Shown one piece after another: positions 11,329 to 29,671 of a stretch of DNA of 64,000 bases. This DNA comes from the human T2T-CHM13v2.0 reference genome, Homo sapiens. The stretch is taken from the NCBI RefSeq assembly GCF_009914755.1, contig NC_060929.1, one strand, 5' to 3'. Position numbers and translations under genes: made by a program. How positions within the stretch are numbered: the stretch's first letter is position 1; each line of letters starts with the position of its first letter. Below the pieces are notes generated by a model. The model was not told where the DNA came from, did no database searches, and saw only the letters and a program-made list of their open reading frames with translations.

Positions 11329-12228
11329 GGGAGGAGACAAGATGGCCGAATAGGAACAGCTCCGGTCTACAGCTCCCAGCGTGAGCGACGCAGAAGACTG
11401 GTGATTTCTGCATTTCCATCTGAGGTACCGGGTTCATCTCACTAGGGAGTGCCAGACAGTGGGCGCAGGTCAGTGCGTGCGCGCACCATGCGCGAGTCGA
11501 AGCAGGGCGAGGCATTGCCTCACTCGGGAAGCGCAAGGGGTCAGGGAGTTCCCTTTCCGAGTCAAAGAAAGGGGTGATGGACGGCACCTGGAAAGTCGGG
11601 TCACTCCCACCCGAATACTGCGCTTTTCTGATGGGCTTAAAAAACGGCGCACCACGAGATTATATCCTACACCTGGCTCGGAGGGTCCTACACCCACGGA
11701 GTCTCGCTGATTGCTAGCACAGCAGTCTGAGATCAAACTGCAAGCGGCAGCTAGGCTGGGGGAGGGGCGCCCGCCATTGCCCAGGCTTGCTTAGGTAAAC
11801 AAAGCAGCAGGGAAGCTCCAACTGGGTGGAGCCCACCACAGCTCAAGGAGGCCTGCCTGCCTCTGTAGGCTCCACCTCTGGGGGCAGGGCACAGACAAAC
11901 AAAAAGCAGTAACCTCTACAGACTTAAATGTCCCTGTCTGACAGCTTTGAAGAGAGCAGTGGTTCTCCCAGCACGCAGCTGGAGATCTGAGAACCTGCAG
12001 ACTGCCTCCTCAAGTGGGTCCCTGACCCCTGACCCCTGAGCAGCCTAACTGGGAGGCACCCCCCAGCAGGGGCACACTGACACCTCACACGGCAGGGTAT
12101 TCCAACAGACCTGCAGCTGAGGGTCATGTCTGTTAGAAGGAAAATTAACAAACAGAAAGGACATCCACACCAAAAACCCATTTGTACATCACCATCATCA
12201 AAGACCAAAAGTAGATAAAACCACAAAG
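11329..12228 (+). promoter_or_regulatory. L1 5'UTR with sense and antisense promoters; intact YY1 motif; many CpGs retained
   Basis: CAAGATGGCCG at 11338-11348; locally CpG-rich; lacks the ~129-bp segment present in the L1PA4 copy. Confidence 0.85.
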
Positions 12229-13244
12229 ATGGGGAAAAAACAGAACAGAAAAACTGGAAACTCTAGAAAGCAGAGCGCCTCTCCTCCTCCAAAGGAACGC
12301 AGTTCCTCACCAGCAACGGAACAAAGCTGGATGGAGAATGACTTTGACGAGCTGAGAGAAGAAGGCTTCAGACGATCAAATTACTCTGAGCTACGGGAGG
12401 ACATTCAAACCAAAGGCAAAGAAGTTGAAAACTTTGAAAAAAATTTAGAAGAATGTACAACTAGAATAACCAATACAGAGAAGTGCTTAAAGGAGCTGAT
12501 GGAGCTGAAAACCAAGGCTTGAGAACTACGTGAAGAATGCAGAAGCCTCAGGAGCCGATGCGATCAACTGGAAGAAAGGGTATCAGCGATGGAAGATGAA
12601 ATGAATGAAATGAAGAGAGAAGGGAAGTTTAGAGAAAAAAGAATAAAAGAAATGAGCAAAGCCTCCAAGAAATATGGGACTATGTGAAAAGACCAAATCT
12701 ACGTCTGATTGGTGTACCTGAAAGTGATGGGGAGAATGGAACCAAGTTGGAAAACACTCTGCAGGATATTATCCAGGAGAACTTCCCCAATCTAGCAAGG
12801 CAGGCCAACGTTCAGATTCAGGAAATACAGAGAACGCCACAAAGTTACTCCTTGAGAAGAGCAACTCCAAGACACATAATTGTCAGATTCACCAAAGTTG
12901 AAATGAAGGAAAAAATGTTAAGGGCAGCCAGAGAGAAAGGTCGGGTTACCCTCAAAGGGAAGTGCATCAGACTAACAGCGGTTCTCTCGGCAGAAACCCT
13001 ACAAGCCAGAAGAGAGTGAGGGCCAATATTCAACATTCTTAAAGACAAGAATTTTCAACCCAGAATTTCATATCCAGCCAAACTAAGCTTCATAAGCGAA
13101 GGAAAAATACAATCCTTTACAGACAAGCAAATGCTGAGAGATTTTGTCACCACCAGGCCTGCCCTAAAAGAGCTCCTGAAGGAAGCACTAAACATGGAAA
13201 GGAACAACTGGTACCAGCCACTGCAAAATCATGCCAAAATGTAA
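12229..13244 (+). pseudogene. ORF1: L1 ORF1p pseudogene
   Basis: Begins MGKKQNRKTGNS; TGA at 12520-12522 (CGA>TGA), 1-nt deletion in an A run near 12645, TGA at 13017-13019; normal stop TAA at 13242-13244. Confidence 0.95.
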
Positions 13245-13307
13245 AGACCATCAAGACTAGGAAGAAACTGCATCAACTAACGAGCAAAATCACCAGCTAA
13301 CATCATA

Positions 13308-27246: not shown

Positions 27247-27309
27247 TATGATGTTAGCTGGTGATTTTGCTTGTTAGTTGATGCAGTTTCTTCCTAGCCT
27301 TGATGGTCT

Positions 27310-28647
27310 TTACAATTTGGCATGTTTTTGCAGTGGCTGGTACTGGTTTTTCCTTTCCATGTTTAGTGCTTCCTTCAGGAGCTCTTTTAGGGCAGGCCTG
27401 GTGGTGACAAAATCTCTCAGCATTTGCTTGTCTGTAAAGGATTGTATTTCTCCTTCACTTATGAAGCTTAGTTTGGCTGGATATGAAATTCTGGTTTGAA
27501 AATTCTTGTCTTTAAGAATGTTGAGGCCGGGCGCGGTGGCTCACGCCTGTAATCCCAGCACTTTGGGAGGCCGAGGCGGGCGGATCACGAGGTCAGGAGA
27601 TCGAGACCATCCCGGCTAAAACGGTGAAACCCCGTCTCTACTAAAAATACAAAAAATTAGCCGGGCATAGTGGCGGGCGCCTGTAGTCCCAGCTACTTGG
27701 GAGGCTGAGGCAGGAGAATGGCGTGAACCCGGGAGGCGGAGCTTGCAGTGAGCCGAGATCCCGCCACTGCACTCCAGCCTGGGCGACAGAGCGAGACTCC
27801 CGTCTCAAAAAAAAAAAAAAAAAAAAAGAAAGAATGTTGAATATTGGCCCCCACTCTCTTCTGGCTTTTAGAGTTTCTTCTGAGAGATCAGCTGTTAGTC
27901 TGATGGGCTTCCCTTTGTTTGTGGGTAACCCCACCTTTCTCTCTGGCTGCCCTTAACATTTTTTCCTTCATTTCAACTTTGGTGAATCTGACAATTATGT
28001 GTCTTGGAGTTGCTCTTCTCGAGGAGTATCTTTGTGGTGTTCTCTGTATTTCCTGAATTTGAATGTTGGCCTGCCTTGCTAGATTGGGGAAGTTCTCCTG
28101 GATAATATCTGCAGAGTGTTTTCCAACTTGGTTCCATTCTCCCTGTCACTTTCAGGTACACCAATGAGATGTAGATTTGGTCTTTTCACATAGTCCCATA
28201 TTTCTTGGAGGCTTTGTTCATTTCTTTTTATTCTTTTTTCTTCTAAACTTCTCTTCTCACTTCATTTCATTCATTTCGTCTTCTATCGCTGATACCCTTT
28301 CTTCCAGTTGATCGCATCATTTACTGAGGCTTGTGCATTCGTCACATAGTTCTCATGCCGTGGTTTTTAGCTCCATCAGGTCCTTTAAGTACTTCTCTGC
28401 ATTGGTTATTCTAGTTATCCATTCATCTAATTTTTTTTTCAAAGTTTTTAACTTCTTTGCCATTGGTTTGTACTTCCTGCTTTAGCTCAGAGTAGTTTCA
28501 TCTTCTGTAGCCTTCTTCTCTCTACTTGTCAAAGTCATTCTCCGTCCAGCTTTGTTCCGTTGCTGGTGAGGAGCTGCATTCCTTTGGAGGAGGAGAGGCA
28601 CTCTGATTTTTAGAGTTTCCAGTTTTTCTGCTCTGTTTTTTCCCCAT
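27310..28647 (-). pseudogene. ORF1: L1 ORF1p pseudogene, frameshifted and Alu-interrupted
   Basis: ATGGGGAAAAAACAG on minus from 28647; fragment [29 protein letters not shown] runs into the Alu; TAA at 27310-27312. Confidence 0.9.
27525..27829 (+). mobile_element. AluYa5
   Basis: Diagnostic ATCCCGGCTAAAACGG, TAGTGGCG, CTACTTGGG and GATCCCGCC; almost all CpGs intact; ~21-nt pure A tail; 11-bp TSD AAGAATGTTGA at 27514-27524 and 27830-27840. Confidence 0.93.
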
Positions 28648-29671
28648 CTTTGTGGTTTTATCTACCTTTGGTCTTTGATGACAGTGATGTACAGATGGGT
28701 TTTTGGTGTGGATGTCCTTTCTGTTTGTTAGTTTTCCTGCTAACAGACAGGACCCTCAGCTGCAGGTCTGTTGGAGTTTTCTGGAGGTCCACTCCAGACC
28801 CTATTTGCCTGGGTATCAGCAGCAGTGGCTGCAGGACAGCAGATATTGGTGAACCGCAAATGCTGCCGTCTGATCGTTCGTCTGGAAGATTTGTCTCAGA
28901 GGAGTACCCGGCCGTGTGAGGTGTCAGTCTCCCCTACTGGGGGGTGCCTCCCAGTTAGACTACTCAGGGGTTAGGAACCCACTTGAGGAGAGAGTCTGCC
29001 CGTTCTCAGATCTCAAGCTGCGTGCTGGGAGAACCACTATTCTCTTCAAAGCTGTCAGACAGGGACATTTAAGTCTGCAGAGGTTATTGCTGTCTTTTGT
29101 TTGTCTGTGCCCTGCCCCTAGAGGTGGAGCCTACAGAGGCAGGCAGGCCTCCTTGAGCTGTGGTGGGCTCCACCCAGTTTGAGCTTCCAGGCCTCTTTGT
29201 TTACCTGCTTAAGCCTGGGCAATGGCGGGCGCCCCTCCCCCAGCCTTGCTGCAGCCTTGCAGTTTGATCTCAAACTCCTGTGCTAGCAGTGAGCGAGGCT
29301 CTGTGGGTGTAGGACCCTCCGAGCCAGGTGAAGGATATAAGCTCCTGATGTGCCGTGTGTTAAACCTGTTGGAAGAGCACAGTATTAGGGTGGGAGTGAC
29401 CCGATTTTCCAGGTGCCTTCTGTCACCCCTTTCTTTGACTAGGAAAGGGAATTCCCTGACCCCATGTGCTTCCCGGGTGAGGTGATGCCTCGCTCTGCTT
29501 TGGCTCATGCATGGTGTGCTGCACCCACTGTCCTGCACCCACTGTCGGGCACTCCCCAGTGAGATGAACCCGGTACCTCAGTTGGAAATGCAGAAATCAC
29601 CCGTCTTCTGTGTCGCTCACGCTGGGAGCTGTAGACTGGAGCTCTTCCTATTTGGCCATCTTGGCTCCACC
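28648..29671 (-). promoter_or_regulatory. L1PA4-type 5'UTR including the ~129-bp segment (~28775-28903) associated with ZNF93 binding
   Basis: Compared with the 5'UTR at 11329-12228 there is an extra block GTTTTCTGGAGGTCCACTCCAGACC...GTCTCAGAGG between GTCTGTTGGA and TACCC.GCCGTGTGAGG. Confidence 0.8.
29222..29485 (+). CDS. ORF0: L1 antisense ORF0, open frame of 87 aa (expression unknown)
   Basis: MAGAPPPALLQPCSLISNSCASSERGSVGVGPSEPG... matches primate ORF0; ATG start; GT donor dinucleotides retained at 29328 and 29413. Confidence 0.6.
   Translation: MAGAPPPALLQPCSLISNSCASSERGSVGVGPSEPGEGYKLLMCRVLNLLEEHSIRVGVTRFSRCLLSPLSLTRKGNSLTPCASRVR

What the first reader, a model, noticed from the sequence alone, without database searches (positions are those of the whole stretch)
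11329..29671. Two different-aged inverted L1s share apparently private mutations: candidate patchy gene conversion
Seen: the UTRs classify the elements differently (900-bp vs ~1024-bp 5'UTR, different 3'UTR diagnostics). Yet both carry the same unusual bases (position in + copy / - copy): AAAGAcAAG 13046/27508; AATAcAATCC 13110/27444; ETH-I 13443/27111; WK-P-NN 14062/26495; IK-T-FF 14122/26435; KI-S-ES 14386/26171; KN-L-ID 14473/26084. In addition GACATA versus GATGTA look like opposite-strand CpG decay products of one shared GACGTA, where I recall consensus GACCTA. Recalled consensus has A and A at the first two sites, and L, L, M, N, Q at the five codons. Interleaved sites still differ (TNY/TNC, IKN/IKK, and ATT/ATC only 2 nt from a shared site). 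Inference: repeated short-tract or patchily repaired conversion between neighbouring inverted copies. It may run both ways (older-type LGN at 16255 in the L1PA2; younger-type WDAF and LKEI in the L1PA4). Five of the 7 shared changes are A/T>G/C, compatible with GC-biased conversion.
Basis: partly seen in the sequence, partly recalled or inferred. Interest (0 to 1): 0.85.

Follow-up and report, generated by a model that had tools for sequence, protein, structure and literature searches.

The report
Patchy sequence exchange between neighbouring L1s
Two dead L1 retrotransposons of different age, lying head to head about 6 kb apart on human chromosome 5, share a set of rare base changes found together nowhere else in the genome, which is best explained by short patches of DNA copied from one to the other, a known process.

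Summary
A (+, 11329-17359) and B (-, 23212-29671) are separate L1 insertions, each with its own target-site duplication. Their 5'UTRs are 900 and about 1025 bp.

The alleles are not strictly private. Exact 25-mers carrying five of them occur 13 to 110 times genome-wide, and 13046C, 13291C and 14473T are markers of A's young sub-lineage. The combination is unique, though: among 282 listed carriers only A and B hold all five, and two unlinked copies hold two each.

B matches A at 8 alleles rare among old copies. Thirteen comparable old copies match at 0-4. A-B ranks first of 384 young-by-old pairs for shared rare alleles, narrowly (5 against 4, 4, 3, 3).

Descent is excluded, because A and B differ at 52 of 64 diagnostic sites.

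Best reading: short or patchy non-allelic gene conversion, mainly young to old (confidence 0.68). The reverse direction and GC bias are not significant.

New here: the 316-bp gap is a young Alu in B that bounds the shared region. There are also four co-located discordant substitutions, unexplained.

It is a known kind of event.

The parts
11329..17359 (+). L1 copy A, the younger one: 900-bp 5'UTR, ORF1 from 12229 (stopped after 97 codons), ORF2 in two open pieces (13308-15191, 15417-16874), poly(A) ending at 17359
   Evidence: Pfam finds an endonuclease domain (E 8.5e-22) and a reverse transcriptase domain (E 9.5e-19) in 13308-15188. A has 37 rare alleles in 4440 bp, against a mean of 34 in 23 young copies.
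11299..11315 (+). 5' copy of A's target-site duplication (GAAATTCTAACCCCCAA); 13 extra bases (11316-11328) follow before the L1 starts
   Evidence: Read directly; the 3' copy is at 17360-17376.
17360..17376 (+). 3' copy of A's target-site duplication
23212..29671 (-). L1 copy B, the older one: about 1025-bp 5'UTR with 128 extra bases relative to A, reading frames broken into pieces
   Evidence: B has 72 rare alleles in 4440 bp, against a mean of 80 in 15 old copies. It carries the old allele at 56 of 63 scorable diagnostic sites.
29672..29687 (-). 5' copy of B's 16-bp target-site duplication (AGAAATCAGAAAAGGT)
   Evidence: the 3' copy is at 23034-23049.
23034..23049 (-). 3' copy of B's target-site duplication
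23075..23213 (-). 139-bp piece of a different interspersed repeat joined to B's 3' end and followed by poly(A) (23050-23074), all inside B's target-site duplication
   Evidence: 39 other genomic matches at 96-98% identity, each covering about the same 136-140 bases of the query. The resemblance to the 3' end of SVA is recalled, not tested.
27525..27840 (+). Alu inserted in B's ORF1, antisense to B, with TSD TCAACATTCTT and about 23 CpG kept. This is the 316-bp 'gap' of the A-B alignment.
   Evidence: sequence; unlinked L1 copies align to A straight across the junction, so B has an insertion and A has no deletion. The name Alu is from reading the sequence, not from a library.
13046..14473 (+). 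Region of A holding the shared alleles 13046C, 13110C, 13291C, 13443A, 14062C, 14122C, 14175G, 14386G and 14473T, interleaved with 68 A-B differences in 13030-14560
26084..27508 (-). The same region in B (27508, 27444, 27263, 27111, 26495, 26435, 26382, 26171, 26084): the likely recipient of patches from A
   Evidence: The best genomic matches to this very stretch of B lack these alleles.
13554..13770 (+). Four sites (13554, 13640, 13701, 13770; B 27000, 26917, 26856, 26787) where A and B each differ from 35/35 panel copies and also from each other
   Evidence: A-B is first of 780 pairs with 4; five pairs have 3. The surrounding 13499-13815 holds 16 rare alleles in B and 6 in A.
15556..15990 (+). 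Stretch with a single A-B difference (15776); B partner is 24576-25010. Candidate tract overwritten in B by a young, unmutated donor.

Best explanation
A and B are two independent, dead L1 insertions. B is older, A is younger, and they lie in opposite orientation with about 5.7 kb between them. After A arrived, the two copies paired at least once, as homologous partners in DNA repair or meiotic recombination. Short patches of one were then written into the other: non-allelic (interlocus) gene conversion.

Most of the detectable transfer went from A into B, inside the first 1.4 kb after the end of ORF1 (A 13046-14473). The patches are short. Their upper bounds are about 24 to 230 bp, set by flanking diagnostic sites that stayed different. 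So either several small events occurred or one long heteroduplex was repaired discontinuously.

Shown: the shared rare alleles, their genome-wide rarity, the uniqueness of the combination, the independent origin of the two copies, and their different lineage backgrounds.

Inferred: that conversion is the mechanism, its direction, and the number and timing of events.
For: 1. Independent origin. Each copy has its own target-site duplication. At 64 diagnostic sites defined without A or B, A has the young allele at 59 and B the old allele at 56 of 63 scorable.

2. Sharing beyond chance. B equals A at 8 alleles that are rare among the other old copies. The 13 non-intermediate old copies score 4, 3, 3, 2, 2, 1, 1, 1, 1, 0, 0, 0, 0. 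The two near-young intermediates L040 and L041 score 17 and 30, but at ordinary diagnostic sites.

3. A-B is first of 384 young-by-old pairs for alleles carried by only 2 or 3 of 40 sequences. It scores 5. The distribution is 272 pairs at 0, 84 at 1, 23 at 2, 2 at 3 and 2 at 4.

4. Genome-wide rarity. The exact 25-mer with 14062C occurs 59 times among 6872 with C or T (0.86%). The others occur 110, 32, 13 and 78 times.

5. Unique combination. Among the 282 listed places, only A and B carry all five alleles. Only two other elements carry two each: C3:64.52 Mb and C14:37.56 Mb. That is about what independence predicts (my arithmetic: 4-5 expected).

6. Direction.
- 13291C: 11/20 young, 1/15 old (the one old carrier is the near-young L041).
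- 14473T: 8/22 young, 0/14 old.
- 14175G: 19/23 young, 2/15 old.
- 13046C: 4/20 young, 0/15 old.
These are alleles of A's sub-lineage; L024 carries 13046C, 13291C and 14473T together.

7. Setting. Published work reports non-allelic conversion between interspersed repeats, strongest within about 10 kb. I read passages only, in PMC6598467 and PMC8230782, both citing Aleshin and Zhi 2010.
Against: The panel-based nulls have heavy tails.
- Two unlinked young-by-old pairs share 4 rare alleles, against 5 for A-B.
- A shares 3 rare alleles with the unlinked copy L034 in 13900-16060, the same number as with B at that threshold.
- A's 10 matches to B at alleles rare among young copies are nearly equalled by L028 with 8.

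The shared alleles are interleaved with about 30 diagnostic and 38 private differences in 1.5 kb. Some implied patches are therefore very short: at most 28 bp around 14386 and at most 24-38 bp around 14473.

13046C also occurs on old-type copies elsewhere (L100, L101), so that site alone does not fix a direction.

At the 64 diagnostic sites neither copy is clearly a mosaic. B has 7 young alleles, against 2-13 in the 12 comparable old copies. A has 5 old alleles, against 0-6 in young copies.

No orthologue or population data were available, so the order of events is not observed.
Confidence: 0.68

Rival explanations
1. Coincidence. The shared alleles are independent recurrent mutations at moderately mutable sites, plus noise from small panels; there was no transfer.
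For: Every shared allele recurs in other copies, 13-110 times each. Unlinked pairs share up to 4 rare alleles. A shares 3 with L034. C3:64.52 Mb independently has both 14062C and 14122C.
Against: With the measured frequencies (about 0.2-1.7% each), and allowing for the choice of 5 among A's roughly 40 rare alleles, my estimate of B carrying five of them is of order 1e-5. Four of the eight are transversions. A-B is still the top pair of 384. B is the top old copy once the two near-young intermediates are set aside.
Confidence: 0.15
2. Exchange happened, but not between these two copies in place. B (or A) was patched by unlinked L1 donors, or the mosaics arose before insertion, by template switching or recombination among source elements.
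For: The clean stretch of B at 15556-16083 matches seven other young copies as well as it matches A, so A cannot be named as its donor. 13046C occurs on young, intermediate and old backgrounds elsewhere. Repair of a broken LINE from dispersed LINE copies in mouse cells is cited in PMC1920257 (Tremblay 2000; I saw the citing passage and the reference only).
Against: The five rare alleles occur together only in A and B. Any third-party donor would have to carry the same combination, and none is found. Reported conversion between repeats falls off beyond about 10 kb (passages).
Confidence: 0.09
3. Shared sub-lineage. Both copies descend from one rare source lineage that carried these alleles.
For: 13046C, 13291C and 14473T are real sub-lineage markers among young copies.
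Against: A and B differ at 52 of 64 diagnostic sites. Alleles present when B was born would be inherited by all later copies, yet the young panel lacks 13110C, 13443A and 14062C (0/20, 0/20, 0/23). No other copy has more than two of the five alleles. The best genomic matches to this stretch of B lack them.
Confidence: 0.03
4. Assembly or polishing artefact that copied bases between the two arms.
For: None found. Inverted repeats are a known difficulty in general.
Against: The arms are only about 95% alike over 6 kb, with 361 mismatches. The shared bases are isolated single sites between unshared ones, which is not the pattern of a collapsed or mis-joined repeat. Reads were not available to me.
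Confidence: 0.03

Closest known systems
Non-allelic gene conversion between neighbouring interspersed repeats (described mainly for Alu; Aleshin and Zhi 2010 as cited in PMC6598467 and PMC8230782; I read passages only)
   Same: Independent insertions of one repeat family within 10 kb share non-diagnostic mutations. A younger element acts as donor to an older one. The tracts are short.
   Different: Here the partners are 6-kb L1s of different age in inverted orientation. Transfer is confined to part of the element and is strongly discontinuous.
Repair of a break in a chromosomal LINE by conversion from endogenous LINEs (Tremblay, Jasin and Chartrand 2000; seen only as a citation and one sentence in PMC1920257, which mentions tracts as small as 13 bp)
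   Same: L1 sequence serves as a template for repair of another L1, and the tracts can be very short.
   Different: That was an experimental break in cultured mouse cells with dispersed donors. This is a germline footprint at one human locus with an adjacent donor.
Arm-to-arm conversion in large inverted repeats such as Y-chromosome palindromes (recalled, no call)
   Same: Intrachromosomal exchange between inverted arms separated by a spacer.
   Different: Palindrome arms are over 99.9% identical and are kept so by frequent conversion. These arms are about 95% identical and were changed at only a few sites.
Complex or discontinuous non-crossover tracts in human meiosis (recalled, no call)
   Same: Converted markers alternate with unconverted ones.
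   Different: Those are allelic events seen in pedigrees. This one is between paralogues and is inferred from a single genome.

Membership tests
LINE-1 (L1) retrotransposon insertion | 5'UTR, ORF1, and an ORF2 with an apurinic-type endonuclease domain and a reverse transcriptase domain | tested here: met
   A 13308-15188 matches PF03372 (E 8.5e-22) and PF00078 (E 9.5e-19). A's ORF1 starts at 12229. B is colinear with A over about 6 kb.
LINE-1 (L1) retrotransposon insertion | Poly(A) tail and target-site duplication flanking each copy | tested here: met
   A: 17-bp duplication at 11299-11315 and 17360-17376. B: 16-bp duplication at 29672-29687 and 23034-23049.
Named subfamilies L1PA2 (A) and L1PA4 (B) | Match to the curated subfamily consensus and its diagnostic positions | not testable with these tools
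   No repeat library is on hand. Shown only: A groups with the young panel and B with the old panel. Rare-allele loads are 0.83% for A and 1.6% for B.
Non-allelic (interlocus) gene conversion | Paralogues of independent origin share derived variants that descent cannot explain | tested here: met
   the five-allele combination is unique to the pair, on different diagnostic backgrounds.
Non-allelic (interlocus) gene conversion | A contiguous tract of raised identity bounded by unconverted flanks | tested here: inconclusive
   13046-14473 shows no drop in divergence (68 differences in 1531 bp). 15570-15977 is a significant run for A-B: none of 20,000 site-order shuffles reached it. But B gives equally long runs with 7 other young copies and keeps its old allele at 15776.
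Non-allelic (interlocus) gene conversion | Orthologues or haplotypes show the recipient's state before the event | not testable with these tools
GC-biased gene conversion | Excess of A/T to G/C among transferred alleles, relative to the local mutation spectrum | tested here: inconclusive
   7 of 8 informative shared alleles are A/T to G/C, against 611 of 1162 panel singletons; P is about 0.05 (the P is my arithmetic).

The most novel reading that the evidence does not exclude
The insertion of the young Alu into B (27525-27840) made the break that started the exchange, or the Alu, as a 316-bp heterology, stopped it. On this reading a one-sided heteroduplex ran from the Alu site through about 1.4 kb of B paired with A and was repaired base by base.

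Some mismatches were converted (the 8-9 shared alleles) and most were restored. A few were repaired wrongly at the mismatched position itself. That would leave the four sites where both copies differ from every other L1 and from each other, and the local excess of private changes in both arms.

If so, the pair records mismatch-targeted mutagenesis during recombination between diverged repeats.
Probability: 0.1. Interest if true: 0.6.

Novelty: new member of a known kind. Interest (0 to 1): 0.35.

Why it matters
Dating and classifying repeats assumes that each copy mutates on its own after insertion. This pair shows, site by site, how a neighbour can write lineage markers and private mutations into an older copy without changing its overall family assignment.

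The pair is well suited to following conversion between 95%-identical sequences. The partners are long, their origin is dated by separate insertions, and the exchange is sparse enough for single patches to be seen.

It does not change what is known about the mechanism, and neither element can still code for its proteins.

Tried and rejected
1. 'The 316-bp gap is a deletion in A.' Rejected: unlinked copies align to A across the junction, and the extra bases in B are an Alu with its own duplication.

2. '15556-15990 is a clean A-to-B tract.' Not accepted as shown. B has no rare allele over 529 bp, where the 15 old copies have 5-17 in 15556-15990. It carries the young alleles 15677G, 15875C and 15920A, a triple seen only in the near-young L040 and L041. 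However, it keeps the old 15776T. Its gap has an analytic P of only 0.014, and old copy L042 has 0.0125. The run test is equally strong with seven other young copies. The young panel was also chosen for similarity to A in exactly this region, which biases it.

3. B's 139-bp tail as a 3' transduction that would lead to B's parent. Rejected: it is a common repeat with at least 39 other copies, so no source locus can be traced from it.

4. Diagnostic-site mosaicism as proof of two-way exchange: not significant.

5. GC bias: not significant.

6. Uneven load of private mutations along B (chi-square P 1e-4 over 10 bins). Three other copies are more uneven, so this is not specific to B.

Three literature searches listed no paper on this locus or on conversion between neighbouring full-length L1s. 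That covers only the held library and those search terms.
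Full report
**What is there.** The window holds two full-length L1 copies in opposite orientation. A lies on the + strand at 11329-17359. B lies on the - strand at 23212-29671.

Each has its own target-site duplication. A's is 17 bp, at 11299-11315 and 17360-17376. B's is 16 bp, at 29672-29687 and 23034-23049. They are therefore separate insertions.

A's ORF1 begins at 12229, which gives a 900-bp 5'UTR. B's 5'UTR is about 1025 bp and has 128 extra bases. A's ORF2 pieces match endonuclease and reverse-transcriptase families. The reading frames of both copies are broken.

The pair differs at 361 aligned positions. Identity is about 95-97% in the coding part and 86-92% in the 5'UTR.

The 316-bp gap in the alignment is not a deletion in A. 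It is an Alu inserted in B at 27525-27840, with its own short duplication and nearly all its CpGs kept.

**Comparison panels.** No repeat library is available, so I drew panels from the window's own genome. There are 23 'young' copies, the best matches to A 15400-16200. There are 15 independent 'old' copies, the best matches to B 26000-27524. Of the 29 non-self loci from the B search, the old panel uses the 13 loci L032-L044, L054, and L046 as the one representative of a duplicated family of 15 acrocentric-arm loci (L045-L053, L055-L060); the other 14 were left out.

Both panels were extended to cover A 12890-17330. From the 29 young loci I dropped six that were truncated or aberrant (L004, L006, L012, L016, L027, L030).

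Each panel was chosen for similarity in one region. That lowers its private load there. It also makes the absence of B's unusual alleles from the best matches to that stretch of B more telling.

**The observation.** All seven bases are at the stated places in both copies, and the peptide contexts are as written.

Five alleles are rare in both panels: 13110C, 13443A, 14062C, 14122C and 14386G. 14175G ('WDAF') is an ordinary young allele that B also has.

**Are the alleles private?** Not singly. Exact 25-mers carrying them occur 110, 32, 13, 59 and 78 times in the genome. 14062C makes up 59 of 6872 copies of that 25-mer.

Jointly they are. Among the 282 listed places, only A and B hold all five, and just two unlinked elements hold two each. 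Ten of the 110 places for 13046C were not listed by the tool. Two elements with two alleles is about what independence predicts.

**Panel-based nulls.** B equals A at 8 alleles that are rare among old copies. Thirteen comparable old copies score 0-4. The two near-young intermediates score 17 and 30, but at ordinary diagnostic sites.

For alleles carried by only two or three of 40 sequences, A-B scores 5 and is first of 384 young-by-old pairs. The margin is small, since two pairs score 4 and two score 3.

Three results go the other way. A shares three rare alleles with the unlinked L034. A's 10 matches to B are approached by L028 with 8. At 64 diagnostic sites neither copy is clearly a mosaic.

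Using the measured genome frequencies, my estimate of the chance that B carries five of A's roughly 40 rare alleles is of order 1e-5. This is my arithmetic, not a tool output.

**Why not descent.** At the 64 diagnostic sites defined without A and B, A has the young allele at 59 and B the old allele at 56 of 63 scorable.

L1 families in primates succeed one another along one main line (established knowledge). An allele present when B was born should therefore be in all younger copies. Yet 13110C, 13443A and 14062C are absent from 20-23 young copies.

So the shared alleles moved between the copies after both were in place. That is non-allelic gene conversion, which the literature reports for interspersed repeats and finds strongest within about 10 kb (passages read in PMC6598467 and PMC8230782).

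**Direction and shape.** 13291C and 14473T, and less firmly 13046C and 14175G, belong to A's sub-lineage. Copy L024 has 13046C, 13291C and 14473T together. For these sites the donor was A.

13046C alone is weak evidence, because it also sits on old-type copies elsewhere (L100, L101).

For the five alleles that are rare everywhere, the direction is open. C14:37.56 Mb, an A-like copy, has 13046C and 14062C, which hints that 14062C came with A.

The case for old-to-young transfer is weak. A has 5 old alleles, against 0-3 in 22 young copies and 6 in L028. One of A's five, 13220A, is native to A's sub-lineage.

The patches are short. Flanking diagnostic sites that stayed different bound them at about 230 bp (13046/13110), 81 bp (13291), 98-119 bp (13443), 212 bp (14062/14122/14175), 28-79 bp (14386) and 24-38 bp (14473).

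GC bias is compatible with the data but not significant.

1. All B-side shared alleles lie 3' of the Alu in B, the first only 17 bp away. None lies in the 930 bp 5' of it. A large heterology that ends or starts heteroduplex would explain this.
2. At four sites within 217 bp (13554, 13640, 13701, 13770), both copies differ from all 35 panel copies and from each other. A-B is first of 780 pairs with 4, and five pairs have 3. The same 316 bp carries an excess of rare alleles: 16 in B against 1-11 in old copies, and 6 in A against 0-5 in young copies. A shared GACGTA stage is possible but not required. I have no tested explanation for this cluster.
3. B has no rare allele over 529 bp (15555-16084) and differs from A only at 15776 within 15569-15990. 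A site-order shuffle test gives P of 5e-5 or less for A-B. B gives equally long runs with seven other young copies and keeps its old allele at 15776. This looks like B overwritten by a clean young donor, but the donor cannot be named.

It is a new example of a known process. It was inferred from one genome without orthologues, so the timing and the number of events remain open.

Noticed in passing
window 27525-27840: A young-looking Alu (about 23 CpG kept, TSD TCAACATTCTT) is inserted in B's ORF1, antisense to B. It marks the 5' limit of the region where B shares rare alleles with A.
   Followed up: partly
window 23050-23213: B ends in a 139-bp piece of another repeat followed by poly(A), all inside B's target-site duplication, so L1 and tail seem to have inserted as one unit. 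At least 39 other genomic copies of about the same 139 bp exist at 96-98% identity. It looks like the 3' end of SVA from memory; this was not tested.
   Followed up: partly
window 11326-11563 (- strand): The annotated first exon of LINC00491 starts inside A's 5'UTR and runs antisense out of the element, as expected for a transcript driven by the L1 antisense promoter. This is read from the annotation table only.
   Followed up: no
genome places listed; L097-L101 (C2:133.9-134.5 Mb): Carriers of 13046C are clustered in the genome: 17 pairs lie 20-200 kb apart among 100 listed, against 0.57 expected if uniform. The other four alleles give 0-2 such pairs. One cluster holds young-type, intermediate and old-type L1 copies that all carry the allele. 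Old segmental duplication or local conversion could explain this; the flanks were not examined.
   Followed up: partly
window 11316-11328: Thirteen extra bases (AAAAACTTACCAC) lie between A's 5' target-site duplication and the first L1 base.
   Followed up: no
L045-L060 (short arms of C13, C14, C15, C21, C22): One old L1 copy is present in many near-identical to 5%-diverged duplicates on the acrocentric short arms. It had to be collapsed to a single representative.
   Followed up: no
S2 locus L002 (C14:64.68 Mb): This young copy has the most uneven spread of rare alleles of all 40 sequences (chi-square P 4e-19 over 20 bins) and shares two of B's private alleles, 13002A and 13205A. It may be a mosaic itself.
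   Followed up: no
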